NCBI GenBank assembly: GCA_016218485.1
Contig: JACRDY010000041.1
Location: 1-57,857 of the forward strand
Origin: Candidatus Falkowbacteria bacterium
GTDB lineage: Bacteria; Patescibacteriota; Patescibacteriia; JACRDY01
Direction of reading: 5' to 3'
Length of the DNA stretch: 57,857 nucleotides
Part shown: one piece after another, positions 2,480-54,375 of the stretch
Layout of the letters: each line of letters begins with the position of its first letter
How positions within the stretch are numbered: the first letter of the stretch is position 1
The notes under the pieces: model-generated
Told to the model about the DNA's origin: nothing
The model's database searches: none
What the model saw: the letters and a program-made list of their open reading frames with translations, nothing else
Made by a program: the position numbers and the translations under genes

Positions 2480-3046
2480 TTAATTTAAATAATTCCGGTC
2501 CTGTGCCCACTTCCCCGGGTTATTTTTCATATAACCACAAATATTTACATAGTCCCGATCATCCCTGATAATCCGTTCGTAATAATTCCGTTGCCACACC
2601 GGGTTCCCCTGCCGCTGTAACAAACAATTAATCTGTTTTGCTGAATTCATTTTGAAATACCCAATAATTTTGGATAAGGTCATCTGACGTCGTTGATCGC
2701 GTAACGGTATTATGGACGATAAACGCTGGTGTAGGGGCGATTCATGAATCGCCCCTACGGGTGCGATGATTTCAATGATACCGTGGATATGGTTGGGCAT
2801 AATGATATAATCGTCCAAAATCACATTATTAAAACGTTTCGGGATACGTACCCATTGGTGTTTGATGATTTTGCCACAATCGCTTAAAACCATCCGTTCG
2901 TTGTTAATGTCCCCAAACAAACATTGTTTATTATCCGTACTACAAATGGTAATGAAATACCACCCTTCACCTGAATAATCATAGGCGGGGAGGCGAATGG
3001 AACGGCGTCGGTGGTGATTGGGGTTATAGGGCATATACCCCACCAT
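2480..3046 (-). CDS. REP-associated tyrosine transposase (RAYT, Y1/HUH, IS200-like)
   Basis: RRSIRLPAYDYS, YFITIC, HUH motif MPNHIHGII, WQRNYYERIIR, YMKNNP. Confidence 0.9.
   Translation of the reverse strand: MVGYMPYNPNHHRRRSIRLPAYDYSGEGWYFITICSTDNKQCLFGDINNERMVLSDCGKIIKHQWVRIPKRFNNVILDDYIIMPNHIHGIIEIIAPVGAIHESPLHQRLSSIIPLRDQRRQMTLSKIIGYFKMNSAKQINCLLQRQGNPVWQRNYYERIIRDDRDYVNICGYMKNNPGKWAQDRNYLN
2731..2758. repeat. Perfect 28-bp GTAG-type REP palindrome inside the RAYT gene
   Basis: GTAGGGGCGATTCA|TGAATCGCCCCTAC; translated as VGAIHESPL. Confidence 0.85.
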
Positions 3047-3160
3047 AACATTTGAAGGATTAAATATTTCTAAATTTTTTATGAATATTTTTTAAATTTA
3101 TAACCATGTGACTAGGTGGTAATGTGACAATATCCGTTTTTTCTGCTAAAATAAAGCTAT

Positions 3161-5302
3161 ATGTTTCATAGCCGGTTACCTAAAAGTACGATTGTCCTCG
3201 TTATTTTTTTAATCAACTTGTTTATCATATCGCCGGCCTTCGCGCTCAAGCCCAATGACCCCGATTATTTTTTGCAGTGGTACATTGAGACGATGCGCCT
3301 GCCGCAGGCTTGGGATTATACCCAAGGCTCGGAGGACGTGATCGTCGCTGTCCTAGACACCGGTCTGGACCTGGATCACCCTGATCTGGCGGCTAACGTT
3401 TGGGTCAATAGCGATGAGATCGGCGGGGACGGCGTTGATAATGATCACAACGGCTATAGTGATGACGTGCATGGCTATGATTTCGTTGATAATGATGCTG
3501 ATCCGAGCCCAGACTTCAGTATCGGCTATGACCCGAAAGCCCTGACCCATGGGACGATCGTCTCCGGTTTGATCGGCGCGGTGGGGGACAATCTCTGGGG
3601 CATTAGCGGGGTGGCCTGGCGCGTGCGCCTGATGCCGGTGCGCGTTTTGGATAATTACGGCATGGCGGATATTGGCCCGACGCTTAAGGGTATTGATTAC
3701 GCGGTCGCCAATGGCGCTGATATTATTAACTTAAGTTTTCAGGGAAATTTTCCCTATGAGGATTTTGCCGCGGCGATTCAGCGCGCGTATCGAGCCGGCG
3801 TGGTGGTGACGGCCGCGGCGGGCAATGGCACCAGCGCCGTCAATGGCTTTGACTTGGATCAAACACAGTTTTACCCGGTGTGCTATGGTTTTGACAACGC
3901 CGCCGATCTGGTGATCGGCGTTGGCGCGGTGGATACTCATGATGTTCGTTCACTCTTTTCTAATTTTGGCAGCCGGTGTTTGGATGTGACGGCGCCGGGC
4001 GAAGAGATCTACTCAACGCAAGTCTACCGTGGTCCGGGTACGGACTTGGCGGTGTACCAGGGCGGCTGGTGGCGGGGGACGTCACTGTCGGCGCCGATTG
4101 TGGCCGGCGTGGCCGCCCTGATCAAGTCCGTTAATAAAAATTTTTCTCCCAATCTCGTCTACAAATTTTTGACTGACACCGCCGTGCCGATTGACAGCTT
4201 GAATGAAGAGCGTGTGCGCGGCAAACTCGGCCGGGGGCGGGTGGACGCCGGCGCGGCAGTCAAAGCGGCGGTTGACTACAATCAGACGCAGGGGCGGCTG
4301 GTGGATACATTGCCTAAGTTTGTGGCGCCTGCGCCAACATTGAATCTCACCAGTGGTGTCGTCGTCGCGCCTGGCGCCGGCTACCAACCGGAAGTGAAAT
4401 TATTTAATACTCAACTGCAGGATGAGGGAAAATTTTTGGCTTATGACAGCAAGTTCACCGGCGGCGTCAACCTGGCGGTGGCTGACATTAATCACGATGG
4501 CCGGCAGGAAGTCATCACCGCGCCGGGTCGTGGCGGCGGACCGCACGTGCGGATCTTCACCCAAGACGGCACCGTGCTGCAGCAGTTTATGGCCTATGAT
4601 CCCAAGTTCACCGGCGGGGTGAACGTGGCCATCGGCGACGTTGATGGTGATAAAATTTTAGATATCATCATTGCGCCGGGTCGCGGCGACGGGCTAGCCT
4701 CGCCGAGTCTAGGCGGGCCGAACGTTCGCGTCTTTGATTACCAGGGCAATATCAAGTATCAATTCATGGCCTACGACAGCAAGTTCACCGGCGGGGTCAA
4801 CCTGGCGGTGGGCGACCTCAATTTGGACGGCGTTGATGAGATAGTAACGGCGCCGCAGAGCGGCAGTCAGCCGGTGCGGGTATTTAATTTTAAGGGCCAG
4901 CAGCAGTCTTCTTTCACTCCCTATGCCGCCAATTTTAAGGGCGGCGTGCGGCTGGCGGTGGGTGACCTGGACGGCGATTATCAACCCGAGATTATTACCG
5001 GGCCACAGGGGAGCGGTGGGCCGCACGTCAGAGTGTTTGATTCGCTCGGTAAAGTGAAAAATCAATTTTTTGTTTTTTATGAAAAATATCTGGGCGGCGT
5101 GCGGCTGGCGGTAGGCGATTATAATTTTGACGGGCGCGATGAACTGTTGGTGGCGCGTGGTTCGGGTGATAGCCAGGTGAAAGTATTGACACTGCAGGGG
5201 CCAGCCTCGCCGAGTTTAGGTTGGCAAGAAATCGCCCAGTTTTCCGCTTTTAGTCAAGGTTACACGGCAGGGGTAAATGTTGCTATAATAGAAGTACGGT
5301 AA
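3161..5302 (+). CDS. Secreted subtilisin-like S8 serine protease with C-terminal FG-GAP repeats
   Basis: Catalytic motifs VAVLDTG, HGT, GTSLSAP; repeats GGVNLAVGD-x-x-x-DG...GPHVRVF. Confidence 0.92.
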   Translation: MFHSRLPKSTIVLVIFLINLFIISPAFALKPNDPDYFLQWYIETMRLPQAWDYTQGSEDVIVAVLDTGLDLDHPDLAANVWVNSDEIGGDGVDNDHNGYSDDVHGYDFVDNDADPSPDFSIGYDPKALTHGTIVSGLIGAVGDNLWGISGVAWRVRLMPVRVLDNYGMADIGPTLKGIDYAVANGADIINLSFQGNFPYEDFAAAIQRAYRAGVVVTAAAGNGTSAVNGFDLDQTQFYPVCYGFDNAADLVIGVGAVDTHDVRSLFSNFGSRCLDVTAPGEEIYSTQVYRGPGTDLAVYQGGWWRGTSLSAPIVAGVAALIKSVNKNFSPNLVYKFLTDTAVPIDSLNEERVRGKLGRGRVDAGAAVKAAVDYNQTQGRLVDTLPKFVAPAPTLNLTSGVVVAPGAGYQPEVKLFNTQLQDEGKFLAYDSKFTGGVNLAVADINHDGRQEVITAPGRGGGPHVRIFTQDGTVLQQFMAYDPKFTGGVNVAIGDVDGDKILDIIIAPGRGDGLASPSLGGPNVRVFDYQGNIKYQFMAYDSKFTGGVNLAVGDLNLDGVDEIVTAPQSGSQPVRVFNFKGQQQSSFTPYAANFKGGVRLAVGDLDGDYQPEIITGPQGSGGPHVRVFDSLGKVKNQFFVFYEKYLGGVRLAVGDYNFDGRDELLVARGSGDSQVKVLTLQGPASPSLGWQEIAQFSAFSQGYTAGVNVAIIEVR

Positions 5303-39775: not shown

Positions 39776-40102
39776 ATGAAATTACCAGATTTTCGTCGTT
39801 CACCAGAATTAACTCAATCTGATGCTTCCGGTTGGCGATCCTATCTTCGTAGTACAGTAAATATTCCGGAGGATTCTGCTGCTTTAATGGATCACATTGC
39901 GGAGTTGCTGACCATTGACGATATTGAAAGGAAGTTCAAAGAAATTTATGATGTTCAAGTAGCCGGTAATACAACGTATCATTTGGATATACCACCAAGA
40001 GAGGGATTCAAAATATCAGCCATGGTTGAATTGGCGCGAGAACGTGGAATCATTACCGCAGAAGAAAAAAGATTAGGACTGACAGTTTGTATCTTAGCTT
40101 AA
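39776..40102 (+). CDS. Hypothetical protein (108 aa), AT-rich
   Basis: Open frame with ATG between comF and a MITE; no recognisable motif. Confidence 0.55.
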   Translation: MKLPDFRRSPELTQSDASGWRSYLRSTVNIPEDSAALMDHIAELLTIDDIERKFKEIYDVQVAGNTTYHLDIPPREGFKISAMVELARERGIITAEEKRLGLTVCILA

Positions 40103-40114
40103 TTATTGTATCAT

Positions 40115-40292
40115 GAGATGGTTGCAAAACCATTTCTCCTACGATTGGTTATTTTTGCCCCGGGTCTTCGTCAGGCGCTATAAAATGATTGGCACCGTAC
40201 TGCCAGTACGGCTCCATCATTTTCCGTCGCTTATCCTCGCCCGGCGGCAAAAATACCTAAATCTCGCTACGAAATGGTTTTGCAACAATCTC
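40115..40292. mobile_element. 178-bp MITE-like element, second full copy
   Basis: gagatggttgcaaaaccatttc / gaaatggttttgcaacaatctc; same length and colinear stems as the 38183 copy. Confidence 0.8.
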
Positions 40293-40340
40293 ACTGTTCA
40301 TTCATAACAAAAAACAACCTCGTTACTTTGGTTGTTTTCT

Positions 40341-40425
40341 TGGCGGAGAGGGTGGTCCGCCCAAGGCGGATCGCTCCACGAGATTCTTTCAGCGCTATTA
40401 GGTATATAACCGGATAACGGTTTTT
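40341..40425 (-). pseudogene. Decayed tRNA-Ser-like remnant with the T-arm replaced by a palindrome
   Basis: 3' end CCACCCTCTCCGCCA; TCCGCCCAAGGCGGA at the T-loop; cggataacggtttt shared with tRNA-Ser(TGA). Confidence 0.55.
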
Positions 40426-40444
40426 CTGCGACTCCGCGACAGAG

Positions 40445-40531
40445 CGGAGGGAGTGGGATTCGAACCCACGATCCGCGTGAACGGATAACGGTTTTCAAGA
40501 CCGTCGCCTTCAACCACTCGGCCATCCCTCC
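40445..40531 (-). tRNA. tRNA-Ser(TGA)
   Basis: GGAGGGATGGCCGAGTGG...GACGGTCT-TGA-AAACCGT, long variable arm, GGTTCGAATCC. Confidence 0.95.
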
Positions 40532-40616
40532 GCTCTAGCGCGGGTTAAGTCGTTTTTCCGCCCTAGACGGAGTACCTTTCTTCAGTCGTACCTTGAAATT
40601 TTTTTCAAGATACGAC

Positions 40617-40697
40617 TGGCGGAAGGAGAGGGATTCGAACCCTCGATACGGATTTAAACCCGTATAACAGGTTAGCAACCTGCCGCCTTCAGCCACT
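40617..40697 (-). pseudogene. Exact 81-bp duplicate of the tRNA-Ser(GCT) 3' part, D-arm interrupted by hairpins
   Basis: Identical to 40871-40951; followed by hairpins tccgctca...tgagcgga and cccgctcg...cgagcggg. Confidence 0.85.
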
Positions 40698-40870
40698 TCC
40701 GCTCATAGCCTTTCAGGCTTGAGCGGACCCGCTCGCGAAGACGAGCGGGCGACCACCCCTCTTCAGTCGCGACCCGAGATTACCCGAAGCGCTATCAGGA
40801 ATTGAATTGCTAACCATCTGCCCGCTTACGCTTCACCGTTACTTTGTTTCATGAAGCTCCAGCGAGGCGA

Positions 40871-40964
40871 TGGCGGAAGGAGAGGGATTCGAACCCTCGA
40901 TACGGATTTAAACCCGTATAACAGGTTAGCAACCTGCCGCCTTCAGCCACTCGGCCATCCTTCC
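40871..40964 (-). tRNA. tRNA-Ser(GCT), CCA encoded
   Basis: GGAAGGATGGCCGAGTGG...CAGGTT-GCT-AACCTG, long variable arm, GGTTCGAATCCCTCTCCTTCCGCCA. Confidence 0.95.
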
Positions 40965-40982
40965 AAAAGTATTTTCCATTTT

Positions 40983-41225
40983 TTAAAGATCCAATTTTTT
41001 CTTTATCTGTCTACGGCCTTGACCTGTTTTGTAGAATATTTCCGTTTTTCGTGCTAATATCTCTTCAGAGTAAGCTTCATAGTAAACCAACTTCCATGGT
41101 CTGTAAAGCTTTGTAGAGGTAACACGTCCAGTATTATGTTCTTTTATTCTAGTAGCTAAGTTTTTACTAAATCCAGTATATAGTTTATTATTTTTTGTAC
41201 TTTTGATAATATATACATAATACAT
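40983..41225 (-). CDS. Small GIY-YIG nuclease
   Basis: YYVYIIKS...LYTGFS, RIKEHN, TKLYRPWKLVYYE; AT-rich. Confidence 0.9.
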   Translation of the reverse strand: MYYVYIIKSTKNNKLYTGFSKNLATRIKEHNTGRVTSTKLYRPWKLVYYEAYSEEILARKTEIFYKTGQGRRQIKKKLDL

Positions 41226-41334
41226 ATATTTGTAATTTTGTCACTTCCGCTCATAGCCCTTCGGGCTTGAGTTGTACAAAAAATTTACAAAATTTATCTA
41301 GAGTATACTATTCTTAATAATAAAAGTCAATCAT

Positions 41335-41820
41335 ATGGCCAGCAATAAATATGGTGAGGAATTAGCCTCGTGGGAGTTTCCGGAATTCGTCGCTCACGAG
41401 CGGAGCCGGGCGTGGTACGTCATCGCGATCATCATCGGCGGCCTGCTGCTCCTGTACGCCGTCCTGGCCGCGAATTTTCTGTTTGCGGTGATTATTCTAG
41501 TGGCCGCGGTGGTGATCTTTTTGCGCAGCTCGCAGCCGCCCCAGAGCGTACCGTTTGCCCTGTATGAAGACGGCATTCGTATCGGCCAGAAGTTTTATGA
41601 TTTTAGCGAGGTCAAGAGTTTTTGTATCATTTATAACCCGCCCGAGGTCAAGAGCCTGTACTTTAATTTTAACAGCCTGTGGCAGCCCCGGATGCGTATC
41701 CCGCTGGATGACGTTGATCCGCTGTCGCTCCGCGATCTCCTCTTGGAGTATTTGGCAGAAGACCTGGATCAAGAGGATGAGCCGTTTTCCGACGGTATCA
41801 GTCGTTTATTCAAACTCTGA
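41335..41820 (+). CDS. Conserved CPR-type membrane protein (two TM helices plus a PH-like domain)
   Basis: WEFPEF...ERSRAWY, two TM helices, GIRIGQKFYDF. Confidence 0.7.
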   Translation: MASNKYGEELASWEFPEFVAHERSRAWYVIAIIIGGLLLLYAVLAANFLFAVIILVAAVVIFLRSSQPPQSVPFALYEDGIRIGQKFYDFSEVKSFCIIYNPPEVKSLYFNFNSLWQPRMRIPLDDVDPLSLRDLLLEYLAEDLDQEDEPFSDGISRLFKL

Positions 41821-41983
41821 CATTCAAACTCTGACTCTGGACAAATCAGTACTGATTTGTTAAACTGTTGGCACTGTTAGGCGCGTCGTCGCTCCCCGCA
41901 TACGCCTTCGGCTCCTGCGGGGCAGGCAGATGAATAAAGCGATCCGATGGATCGGGGTCGGACGCGAATAGGTTAATACGTAT

Positions 41984-42058
<75 letters not shown>

Positions 42059-54302: not shown

Positions 54303-54375
54303 AGGAGGTTGGTTAGAAATTATCAGCTTGGGGCTGATCCGCCTTGGGCGGAGATATTAGAAATTTAGGGAAAAT

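What the first reader, a model, noticed from the sequence alone, without database searches (positions are those of the whole stretch)
40617..41271. tRNA-Ser(GCT) plus GIY-YIG nuclease unit bounded by hairpin direct repeats, with an exact tRNA duplication
Seen: cacttccgctcatagcc(t/c)ttc(a/g)ggcttgag occurs at 40694-40723 and 41242-41271 with a compensatory stem change. Between them lie an intact tRNA and an AT-rich GIY-YIG gene. An identical 81-bp tRNA 3' copy ends exactly at the first repeat, and a degenerate 5' strand (cgaccacccctc) follows two hairpins. Inference: a tiny integrase-free element that invades the tRNA D-arm and restores an intact tRNA, possibly spread by nuclease-driven homing.
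Basis: partly seen in the sequence, partly recalled or inferred. Interest (0 to 1): 0.7.

Follow-up and report, generated by a model that had tools for sequence, protein, structure and literature searches.

The report
Tiny nuclease-hairpin parasite of tRNA genes
This stretch is a worn copy of a very small selfish DNA element, made of a double hairpin plus an 80-residue GIY-YIG nuclease gene, that lodges inside tRNA genes of ultra-small (CPR) bacteria while keeping an intact tRNA copy beside it; the family is widespread, and I found no description of it.

Summary
An exact 81-nt repeat (40617-40697 = 40871-40951) and a 30-nt hairpin repeat with a compensatory change flank an 80-aa GIY-YIG gene and an intact tRNA-Ser(GCT).

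The 30-nt repeat is part of a 52-nt double hairpin (HP). HP sits between nt 13 and 14 of a second, dead tRNA copy.

In 80 related loci, 60 have a same-strand tRNA touching the GIY gene. At least 32 of 43 loci with a tRNA just downstream carry a tRNA 5' fragment upstream, usually with an HP in a loop-coding position. Loci L005 and L087 repeat the window's layout. Syntenic loci L091 and L095 lack GIY, HP and the duplication.

The protein is UPF0213/SLX1-like and has no DNA-binding domain. Its subfamilies co-vary with hairpin type.

Best reading: a decayed member of an apparently undescribed family of tRNA-nested GIY-YIG/double-hairpin elements. The nuclease message probably rides on the tRNA precursor.

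The way it spreads (homing-like copying or recombination through tRNA homology) is inferred, not shown. The only public run with this organism lacks the spacer and right hairpin, so the duplication is unconfirmed by reads or is polymorphic.

The parts
41302..41330 (-). Promoter-like site TTGACT-17-TATACT, taken to be the native tRNA-Ser(GCT) promoter. It now lies upstream of R1, the GIY gene and the tRNA.
   Evidence: 10 of 12 consensus matches. The same TTGACT-17-TATACT lies about 35 nt before the tRNA in the empty relative L095.
41242..41271 (-). R1: the truncated left copy of the double hairpin. Only hairpin 2 and the following AGTG remain.
   Evidence: Alignment A2 shows that sequence upstream of CTCAAGCC is unrelated to the full module.
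41226..41241 (-). 16-nt AT-rich leader between the hairpin and the start codon.
   Evidence: Relatives have leaders of 1-17 nt.
40983..41225 (-). 80-aa single-domain GIY-YIG nuclease gene of the UPF0213/SLX1-like kind, AT-rich.
   Evidence: Catalytic residues Y5, Y16, G18, R26, H30 and E62 are invariant in 46 relatives. PDB sequence match to UPF0213 1zg2 at E=3e-12. Model pLDDT 95 with best fold matches to UPF0213 and SLX1.
40965..40982 (-). 18-nt gap between the stop codon and the tRNA 5' end.
   Evidence: Relatives have gaps from -1 to 14 nt as a rule.
40871..40964 (-). Intact tRNA-Ser(GCT), 94 nt (copy T1).
   Evidence: 59.4 bits.
40765..40870 (-). Unique part of spacer S, of unknown origin.
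   Evidence: No significant similarity to local intergenic DNA or to any fetched locus. Absent from the contigs of run X1.
40750..40764 (-). Degenerate remnant resembling a tRNA-Ser 5' region (GAAGAGGGGTGGTCG). It differs from the 5' end of T1.
   Evidence: By analogy with the short tRNA 5' pieces that precede the right-hand hairpin in L005, L021 and L063. The assignment is uncertain.
40698..40749 (-). Full double hairpin (HP): hairpin 1 at 40728-40749 and hairpin 2 at 40698-40727. It is inserted between tRNA nt 13 and 14. R2 of the finding is its 3' part.
   Evidence: The module is 92-96% identical to copies in L088, L087 and L083/L003.
40617..40697 (-). T2: tRNA-Ser(GCT) nt 14-94, 100% identical to T1. 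It is the dead, displaced copy.
   Evidence: Not a valid tRNA. With its upstream remnant and hairpins it cannot form an acceptor stem.
40444..40531 (-). tRNA-Ser(TGA), the next gene of the same operon.
40341..40370 (-). Older relic: half a double hairpin (tccgccttgggcgga) followed by a tRNA-Ser 3'-end remnant (CCACCCTCTCCGCCA), just after tRNA-Ser(TGA).
   Evidence: The layout matches the pattern 'intact tRNA, hairpin, 3' remnant' seen in L087, L085 and L084.

Best explanation
On the minus strand, the region is a decayed copy of a family of very small selfish elements that live inside tRNA genes of CPR/Patescibacteria.

The constant parts of the family are:
- a GC-rich double hairpin (HP) of about 30-60 nt;
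- 10-30 nt later, an AT-rich gene for an ~80-aa GIY-YIG nuclease of the UPF0213/SLX1 type, with no DNA-binding domain;
- an intact tRNA gene that starts 0-20 nt after the stop codon.

HP always sits at a loop-coding position (D, anticodon or T loop) of a second, partial copy of the same tRNA. That copy is thereby dead.

The order in the window is: native tRNA promoter, truncated HP (R1), GIY gene, intact tRNA-Ser(GCT), spacer S, degenerate 5' remnant, full HP between nt 13 and 14, tRNA nt 14-94 (T2).

Shown here: the anatomy, its recurrence in many genomes, its absence from syntenic relatives, and co-variation of nuclease subfamily with hairpin type.

Inferred:
- The nuclease message is co-transcribed with the tRNA from the tRNA's own promoter and released by tRNA processing.
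- The nuclease, like SLX1, recognises DNA structure (the extruded hairpins, or the folded single-stranded tRNA gene) rather than sequence.
- A break it makes is repaired by copying HP, GIY and tRNA sequence from an occupied allele, with the conserved tRNA sequence itself as homology. This is homing-like, and it leaves displaced tRNA fragments.
- The 254-bp unit (T + S + HP) can be lost or gained by recombination between the two 81-nt repeats.
For: Recurrence:
- Among 80 loci that encode relatives, 41 have a same-strand tRNA starting within -30 to +60 nt of the GIY end, against 0.34 expected. In 60 loci a tRNA is adjacent on one side or the other, and only 1 is on the opposite strand.
- Two or more GC-rich hairpins lie in the 110 nt upstream in 49% of loci, against 0.7% of control windows.
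- At least 32 of 43 loci with a tRNA just downstream carry a 5' fragment of the same isoacceptor upstream (18 identical, 14 divergent). In about 20 of them the tRNA sequence resumes right after the HP for 5-12 nt.

Same architecture elsewhere:
- L005 (Uhrbacteria) and L087 (the orthologous locus of a closer relative) both have the window's layout.
- L083 and L101 show a unit bounded by HP on both sides that carries GIY and a whole tRNA. In L101 it lies between mutually compatible 5' and 3' remnants of another allele.

Empty sites:
- Syntenic loci L091 and L095/L096 have tRNA-Ser(TGA), tRNA-Ser(GCT) and the promoter, but no GIY, no HP and no duplication.

Protein and hairpin:
- The HP module is 92-96% identical across unrelated metagenomes.
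- The nearest GIY neighbour has the same HP type in 30 of 30 cases, against 15.6 by permutation.
- The catalytic residues are invariant.
- The fold and sequence are closest to UPF0213 and SLX1.
- Composition is foreign to the host.
- The native promoter lies upstream.
Against: - No activity or movement has been observed.
- An 80-aa catalytic domain alone has no known way to find a target.
- Solo hairpins occur without GIY and away from tRNAs (window 54322-54352; L088), so the hairpin may move by other means.
- Upstream remnants are sometimes identical to the intact tRNA and sometimes a different allele. The direction of transfer, resident versus imported tRNA, is therefore unresolved.
- The empty relatives share only 59-65% identity in the neighbouring protein, so calling this an insertion rather than a deletion rests on parsimony.
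- In the window the left end is truncated and the expected resident 5' fragment is absent.
- The one accessible run lacks 40698-40870.
Confidence: 0.6

Rival explanations
1. The tandem arrangement in this contig is an assembly artefact. An 81-nt tRNA repeat let the assembler thread a spacer-plus-hairpin segment from another strain or organism into a locus that really has a single tRNA-Ser(GCT).
For: Contigs of run X1 cover both sides exactly at depth 10-14. They hold no word from 40698-40870 and no junction between T2 and R2. No indexed run holds that segment.
Against: Any source of the segment must itself carry 'tRNA 3' end, spacer, hairpin, tRNA nt 14 onward', so the architecture exists in some genome of the sample. 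The same architecture is found independently in L005 and L087. Logan's graph cleaning may have dropped a short, low-depth path between very high-depth tRNA nodes. The GIY gene, R1 and the intact tRNA are confirmed by contig L001.
Confidence: 0.12
2. The double hairpin is an independent element of the MITE or REP kind, moved by some other enzyme or by host recombination. The GIY-YIG gene is a separate free-standing homing endonuclease gene that happens to favour the same tRNA neighbourhoods.
For: Solo hairpins occur without GIY, in both orientations relative to the tRNA, and sometimes away from tRNAs.
Against: The spacing from hairpin to start codon is tight and fixed. Hairpin type co-varies perfectly with nuclease subfamily. 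No other candidate enzyme was seen near these loci.
Confidence: 0.15
3. This is an ordinary local duplication with decay. The GIY-YIG protein is a housekeeping factor (for example DNA repair or RNA processing) that is simply co-transcribed with tRNA-Ser genes, and the hairpins are transcript-processing or terminator signals.
For: The position just upstream of the tRNA is conserved. There is no DNA-binding domain. UPF0213 proteins occur as ordinary chromosomal genes in many bacteria.
Against: The gene is absent from syntenic relatives. Its composition is foreign to the host. It is found beside at least 9 tRNA species downstream and others upstream. Some loci carry two copies in tandem (L015, L101). 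Tandem tRNA fragments are interrupted exactly at loop positions.
Confidence: 0.08
4. The hairpin is an intervening sequence removed from the tRNA transcript, so the interrupted copy is still functional.
For: The hairpin lies in a loop position. Non-intron insertions at stem-loops are known in CPR rRNA genes (PMC11270868).
Against: An intact copy accompanies the interrupted one in the loci examined in detail. Here the 5' remnant cannot pair with the 3' acceptor strand. Most interrupted copies are truncated. No ribozyme or intron family matched.
Confidence: 0.03

Closest known systems
Free-standing GIY-YIG homing endonuclease genes of T4-like phages (Seg proteins; SegB lies in the T4 tRNA gene cluster, PMC2330249)
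   Same: They share the GIY-YIG catalytic domain. Both are selfish genes lodged between or next to tRNA genes. Spread of the Seg genes is by a break in the empty allele followed by copying of the gene with its flanking markers.
   Different: Seg proteins and I-TevI are 200-250 aa with a DNA-binding domain. This protein is the bare 80-aa catalytic domain and is closer to UPF0213/SLX1. The phage genes have no hairpin module and leave no partial duplication of the target. This family is nearly absent from phage collections.
UPF0213 / YhbQ small GIY-YIG proteins (PDB 1zg2, 1ywl) and the SLX1 structure-specific nuclease domain
   Same: These are the best sequence and fold matches, with the same size and catalytic residues. 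SLX1 cuts branched and stem-loop DNA, which suggests recognition of structure.
   Different: No tRNA or hairpin context is described for UPF0213 proteins. SLX1 needs its partner SLX4 and has a RING domain.
tRNA-integrating genomic islands and prophages (own knowledge)
   Same: They insert within a tRNA gene and carry a tRNA segment that restores an intact gene. This leaves a displaced fragment as a direct repeat.
   Different: Those elements use a tyrosine integrase, are kilobases long and target the 3' half. This element is 0.3-0.6 kb, has no integrase, has a hairpin at the junction, and replaces the 5' part, the 3' part or the whole tRNA.
Double-hairpin elements and GC clusters of fungal mitochondria (mentioned in PMC4618339 and PMC10085805; details from own knowledge)
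   Same: They are short GC-rich two-hairpin mobile units in AT-rich contexts. They co-occur with mobile endonuclease ORFs and with duplications of gene ends.
   Different: Those are organellar and are not known to be specific for tRNA loops. No sequence relation was tested.
REP elements with RAYT, and IS200/IS605 elements
   Same: A small single-domain enzyme is paired with hairpin sites in cis, and there are many enzyme-less solo copies.
   Different: Those enzymes are HUH/Y1 transposases that act on single-stranded DNA. No GIY-YIG enzyme is known in that role.
GIY-YIG-encoding non-intron insertions in CPR rRNA genes (PMC11270868)
   Same: They occur in the same phyla and encode GIY-YIG ORFs. 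They are insertions that are not group I or II introns, and most insertions surveyed there lie at the tops or bases of stem-loops of a structured-RNA gene.
   Different: They lie in rRNA genes. No tRNA association, hairpin module or rescue copy is described. Whether the proteins belong to the same subfamily was not tested.

Membership tests
GIY-YIG nuclease superfamily | The GIY...YIG motifs and the catalytic Arg, His/Tyr and Glu in a beta-beta-alpha-alpha-beta-alpha fold | tested here: met
   Pfam PF01541 at E=2.5e-15. Y5, Y16, G18, R26, H30 and E62 are invariant. The model has pLDDT 95 and matches UPF0213, SLX1 and I-TevI.
Homing endonuclease gene (functional class) | Presence/absence difference at an otherwise conserved site | tested here: met
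   Syntenic loci L091 and L095/L096 lack the gene. These relatives are distant, at 59-65% identity in the neighbouring protein.
Homing endonuclease gene (functional class) | Site-specific cleavage of the empty allele | not testable with these tools
   This needs biochemistry.
Homing endonuclease gene (functional class) | A DNA-binding domain attached to the catalytic domain, as in I-TevI and the Seg proteins | tested here: not met
   The protein is 80 aa and the catalytic domain fills residues 1-69. Nearly all relatives are 80-130 aa.
tRNA-integrating island or prophage | A tyrosine or serine integrase next to the att site | tested here: not met
   GIY is the only ORF with a family match between the repeats, which lie 548 bp apart.
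tRNA-integrating island or prophage | Direct repeats formed by a tRNA segment, with an intact tRNA restored | tested here: met
   The 81-nt exact repeat and the intact T1.
Group I intron in a tRNA gene | A ribozyme core, with the tRNA exons contiguous after removal | tested here: not met
   No intron family matched. The 5' remnant is incompatible with the 3' part, and an intact copy lies adjacent.
IS200/IS605 or REP-RAYT | An HUH/Y1 transposase | tested here: not met
   The only enzyme present is GIY-YIG.
MITE | Terminal inverted repeats with a short fixed target-site duplication | tested here: inconclusive
   The module is quasi-palindromic and occurs in both orientations. The flanking repeats are tRNA segments of very different lengths, from 5 to more than 80 nt.
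tRNA-nested GIY-YIG/double-hairpin element (family proposed here) | A double hairpin at a tRNA loop position, a GIY gene within 30 nt of a hairpin, and an intact tRNA of the same anticodon adjacent | tested here: met
   In the window, the full HP sits at nt 13/14 of T2, R1 lies 16 nt before the ATG, and T1 starts 18 nt after the stop. The left hairpin is truncated.

The most novel reading that the evidence does not exclude
The 80-aa SLX1-like GIY-YIG protein may itself be the mobility enzyme of a new class of prokaryotic mobile element, with the double hairpin as its only site in cis. It would find targets by structure: loop-coding positions of heavily transcribed structured-RNA genes (tRNA and perhaps rRNA), where the non-template strand can fold. 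It would survive in essential single-copy tRNA genes because each insertion comes with a rescue copy. In effect this would be a natural 'cleave-and-rescue' element.
Probability: 0.25. Interest if true: 0.9.

Novelty: new variant of a known kind. Interest (0 to 1): 0.7.

Why it matters
If this reading holds, CPR bacteria carry a large, unrecognised population of mobile elements. A profile search found 7,329 protein clusters at E<=1e-10.

At 0.3-0.6 kb these would be among the smallest protein-coding mobile elements known. They would rely on a bare GIY-YIG catalytic domain and a hairpin.

They repeatedly break and replace essential tRNA genes. That would explain the tRNA fragments, the tandem pseudo-tRNAs and part of the assembly breaks at tRNA loci in these genomes.

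They also offer a simple system for asking how a nuclease with no DNA-binding domain finds a target. For annotation, the hairpin-interrupted copies should not be called tRNAs, as ARAGORN does here.

Tried and rejected
- Spacer S as a diverged copy of local intergenic DNA. Local alignments score no better than shuffles. Outside the hairpin, S matches none of the fetched loci.
- Known RNA families. Only tRNAs and antisense-tRNA artefacts matched in the window. Nothing matched the 155-nt spacer of another architecture class.
- Read confirmation. Only Logan contigs of a 2020 run are available, and they lack 40698-40870. This is negative evidence and not decisive.
- DNA-level versus RNA-level role of the hairpins, judged from G-T pair frequency. 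The fraction is 10.9% in the upstream hairpins and 18.4% in chance hairpins, which is inconclusive.
- Phage origin. There are four weak phage hits and none in IMG/VR.
- Simple target-site-duplication model. It fits some solo hairpins (L087 has a 23-nt flanking repeat). It does not fit the pattern 'remnant, hairpin, short tRNA piece, GIY, tRNA'.
- Literature. Seven searches found no description of this association. The nearest papers are on T4 SegB and on CPR rRNA insertions.

Full report
**What is in the sequence.** All features lie on the minus strand.

Read in the sense of the tRNAs, the order is:
- a sigma-70-like promoter, TTGACT-17-TATACT (41330..41302);
- a 30-nt hairpin repeat, R1 (41271..41242);
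- a 16-nt leader;
- an 80-codon ORF (41225..40983);
- an 18-nt gap;
- a complete tRNA-Ser(GCT) (40964..40871, copy T1);
- a 147-nt spacer, S (40870..40724);
- the second hairpin repeat, R2 (40723..40694);
- overlapping R2 by 4 nt (AGTG), an exact copy of tRNA nt 14-94 (40697..40617, copy T2);
- 85 nt of spacer;
- tRNA-Ser(TGA) (40531..40444).

The 81-nt repeat is 100% identical. The 30-nt repeat differs at two positions, which together turn a T-A pair into a C-G pair. Shuffled sequence gives no such match.

T1 is a good tRNA at 59.4 bits. T2 is not, at 37 bits against the tRNA-Sec model, which is below threshold. ARAGORN's call of a tRNA lacking the D-arm is an artefact.

The ORF is a GIY-YIG domain (Pfam E=2.5e-15). 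It has 23-36% GC in a region of about 55%.

**The 30-nt repeat is part of a larger module.** R2 is the 3' part of a 52-nt double hairpin, called HP here (40749..40698). Hairpin 1 has the stem CCCGCTCG/CGAGCGGG. Hairpin 2 has the stem CCGCTCA/TGAGCGG with an inner stem AGCC(T/C)/(A/G)GGCT. Folded as DNA, the module gives -24.5 kcal/mol with z = -6.3.

R1 keeps only hairpin 2. The sequence upstream of it is unrelated (alignment A2).

HP is preceded by GAAGAGGGGTGGTCG. This resembles a tRNA-Ser 5' region but differs from the 5' end of T1. With it, T2 cannot form an acceptor stem.

T2 is thus a tRNA copy with a double hairpin inserted between nt 13 and 14, at the start of the D-loop.

**Relatives.** The protein has 241 relatives in the word-indexed search, almost all 80-130 aa and from CPR/Patescibacteria. 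A profile search found 7,329 clusters at E<=1e-10. The catalytic residues are invariant.

I fetched 80 loci from species-representative genomes.
- In 41 loci a same-strand tRNA starts within -30 to +60 nt of the GIY end, against 0.34 expected from the tRNA density of the flanks.
- In 60 loci a same-strand tRNA touches the gene on one side or the other. Only one is on the opposite strand.
- The downstream tRNAs are Ser (all four anticodons, 32 loci), His, Cys, Trp, Pro and Met.
- Two or more GC-rich hairpins lie in the 110 nt upstream in 49% of loci, against 0.7% of control windows.

**The recurrent architecture.** In the loci with a tRNA just downstream, the region upstream of GIY reads as follows:
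- tRNA nt 1..n;
- HP of 28-67 nt;
- tRNA nt n+1..n+5-12;
- a leader of 1-17 nt;
- the ATG.

After the stop codon comes the intact tRNA.

The position n falls in the D-loop region (about 12-24) or in the anticodon loop (35-37). Of 43 such loci, 18 carry a 5' fragment identical to the intact tRNA. Another 14 carry a different allele of the same isoacceptor.

Other classes place an intact tRNA upstream, then HP, GIY and a 3' remnant that starts in the T-loop. A further class has a conserved 155-nt two-hairpin spacer.

A metagenome scan for the window's hairpin motif found the same module, 92-96% identical, mostly as solo copies. These are flanked by tRNA 3'-end fragments and occur in both orientations.

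**Loci that repeat the window's layout.**
- L005 (Uhrbacteria) reads: GIY, 14 nt, intact tRNA-Ser(GCT), 29 nt ending in GTGGCTG, HP, then AGTGGTCG... to the 3' end, with a second hairpin in the T-loop.
- L087 is the orthologous locus of a closer relative. It has the same neighbouring gene and promoter. It reads: intact tRNA-Ser(GCT), 39 nt, a pseudo-copy with the same HP family after nt 21, then GIY. Hairpin-interrupted fragments lie around tRNA-Ser(TGA).
- L083 and L101 show HP, GIY, a whole tRNA, and HP again. In L101 this unit lies between 5' and 3' remnants that fit each other but not the intact tRNA.

The tandem 'intact plus interrupted' arrangement is therefore a recurrent biological form.

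**Empty sites.** Homologues of the neighbouring 161-aa protein led to syntenic loci. L091 shares 59% identity in that protein and L095/L096 share 65%.

L091 keeps the full order: ComF-like gene, tRNA-Ser(TGA), tRNA-Ser(GCT), promoter region, 161-aa gene, tRNA-Arg, RecG. The short contig L095 keeps the two tRNA-Ser genes, the promoter region, the 161-aa gene and tRNA-Arg. Neither has GIY, a hairpin or a duplication.

The promoter hexamers are the same as in the window. The GIY cassette thus sits between the native tRNA promoter and the tRNA. Co-transcription is inferred from this.

L093 keeps the synteny but shows hairpin-interrupted tRNA relics.

**The protein.** Sequence profile matches to solved structures are UPF0213 proteins (1zg2 at E=3e-12, and 1ywl), then SLX1, then weakly I-TevI.

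A confident model (pLDDT 95.4) superposes best on UPF0213 and on the SLX1 nuclease domain (TM 0.66-0.73, rmsd 1.5-2.3 A in the best cases). It fits I-TevI less well.

There is no room for a DNA-binding domain.

The C-terminal basic helix differs between subfamilies, and these differences track the hairpin type. The nearest protein neighbour has the same hairpin type in 30 of 30 cases, against 15.6 by permutation. Either the protein recognises the hairpin, or the two are inherited as one unit.

**Reads.** One groundwater run (X1) holds 80% of the words of 40300-41500. Its Logan contigs match 40000-40697 and 40928-42029 exactly at depth 10-14. This includes the 1102-nt contig L001 with R1, GIY and the tRNA 5' end.

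No contig holds S, the full HP or the junction between T2 and R2. No indexed run holds that segment.

There are two possible readings. That population may have the 254-bp-shorter form, which is what recombination between the two 81-nt repeats would give. Alternatively, the contig cleaning may have removed a short low-depth path between very deep tRNA nodes. I cannot tell which.

**How it most likely works.** The structural facts above are shown. The mechanism is inferred.

The element needs an essential, conserved, highly transcribed host gene. It avoids killing that gene by always leaving or bringing an intact copy.

The SLX1-like fold, the lack of a binding domain, the loop positions and the quasi-palindromic hairpins all point to recognition of structure. 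The candidate structures are extruded hairpins, or the folded non-template strand of a transcribed tRNA gene.

A break would be repaired from an occupied allele. The tRNA fragment left of HP and the intact tRNA right of GIY would serve as the homology arms, which reproduces the architecture. A single crossover between a small circle and the tRNA gene would give the same products.

Divergent remnants show that whole tRNA alleles are sometimes replaced.

In the window the left hairpin and the resident 5' fragment have been eroded. This copy is probably no longer complete.

**Comparison with what is known.** The closest systems are:
- free-standing GIY-YIG homing endonuclease genes, such as SegB in the T4 tRNA cluster (PMC2330249);
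- tRNA-integrating islands;
- hairpin-plus-enzyme systems such as REP/RAYT;
- the double-hairpin elements of fungal mitochondria;
- GIY-YIG ORFs in non-intron insertions of CPR rRNA genes (PMC11270868).

None of these combines a bare GIY-YIG domain, a double hairpin, insertion at tRNA loop positions and a rescue tRNA copy. Seven literature searches found no description of the association. The library is incomplete, so the novelty is provisional.

I am confident that this is a member of a widespread family of tRNA-nested GIY-YIG/double-hairpin elements. I am much less confident about the mechanism. Overall confidence in the best explanation is 0.6.

Interest is 0.7, and I rate it a new variant of a known kind. 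It would be categorically new if the small nuclease proves to be the mobility enzyme.

Noticed in passing
window 40113-40295: A rod-like imperfect hairpin of about 185 nt with internal loops. RNA folding gives -87.5 kcal/mol on the minus strand and -83.4 on the plus strand, with z about -10.5. It has a 6S-RNA-like shape but no Rfam match at E<=1. It is absent from the syntenic position in L091.
   Followed up: partly
window 39776-40102: A 108-aa ORF in an AT-rich stretch (37-41% GC) between the ComF-like gene and the tRNA operon. It has no Pfam or PHROG match. It is absent at this position in L091, so it may be another insertion.
   Followed up: partly
window 54322-54352: A solo double hairpin, tcagcttggggctga tccgccttgggcgga. 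It belongs to the other main hairpin family and lies in an intergenic region with no tRNA nearby.
   Followed up: partly
window 40341-40370: Half a double hairpin followed by a tRNA-Ser 3'-end remnant (CCACCCTCTCCGCCA), directly after tRNA-Ser(TGA) and before the operon terminator. It is a relic of an older event.
   Followed up: partly
L014, L039, L041, L052, L053, L059, L079 (about 2845-3000 in each): A conserved structured spacer of about 155 nt (ctgatattcg...cgaatatcag tcctgt...acagggca) lies between a tRNA 3' end (Leu, Glu or Phe) and a distinct GIY subfamily. No Rfam family matches it.
   Followed up: partly
L015 about 2900-3400; L101 1201-1979: Two GIY-YIG genes lie in tandem around one tRNA-Ser(CGA). 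The second belongs to a different subfamily or hairpin type, which points to nested or successive insertions.
   Followed up: no
L093 1960-2075 and 2185-2240: A syntenic relative without GIY still carries a tRNA pseudo-copy with a hairpin in its T-loop. It also has a 36-nt 5' remnant of tRNA-Ser(TGA) abutting the intact gene. These look like scars of past elements.
   Followed up: no
L089 3324-3569: Three tandem tRNA 3'-end fragments, each with a double hairpin in the T-loop position. The hairpins belong to two different families and lie antisense to the hairpin orientation seen elsewhere.
   Followed up: no
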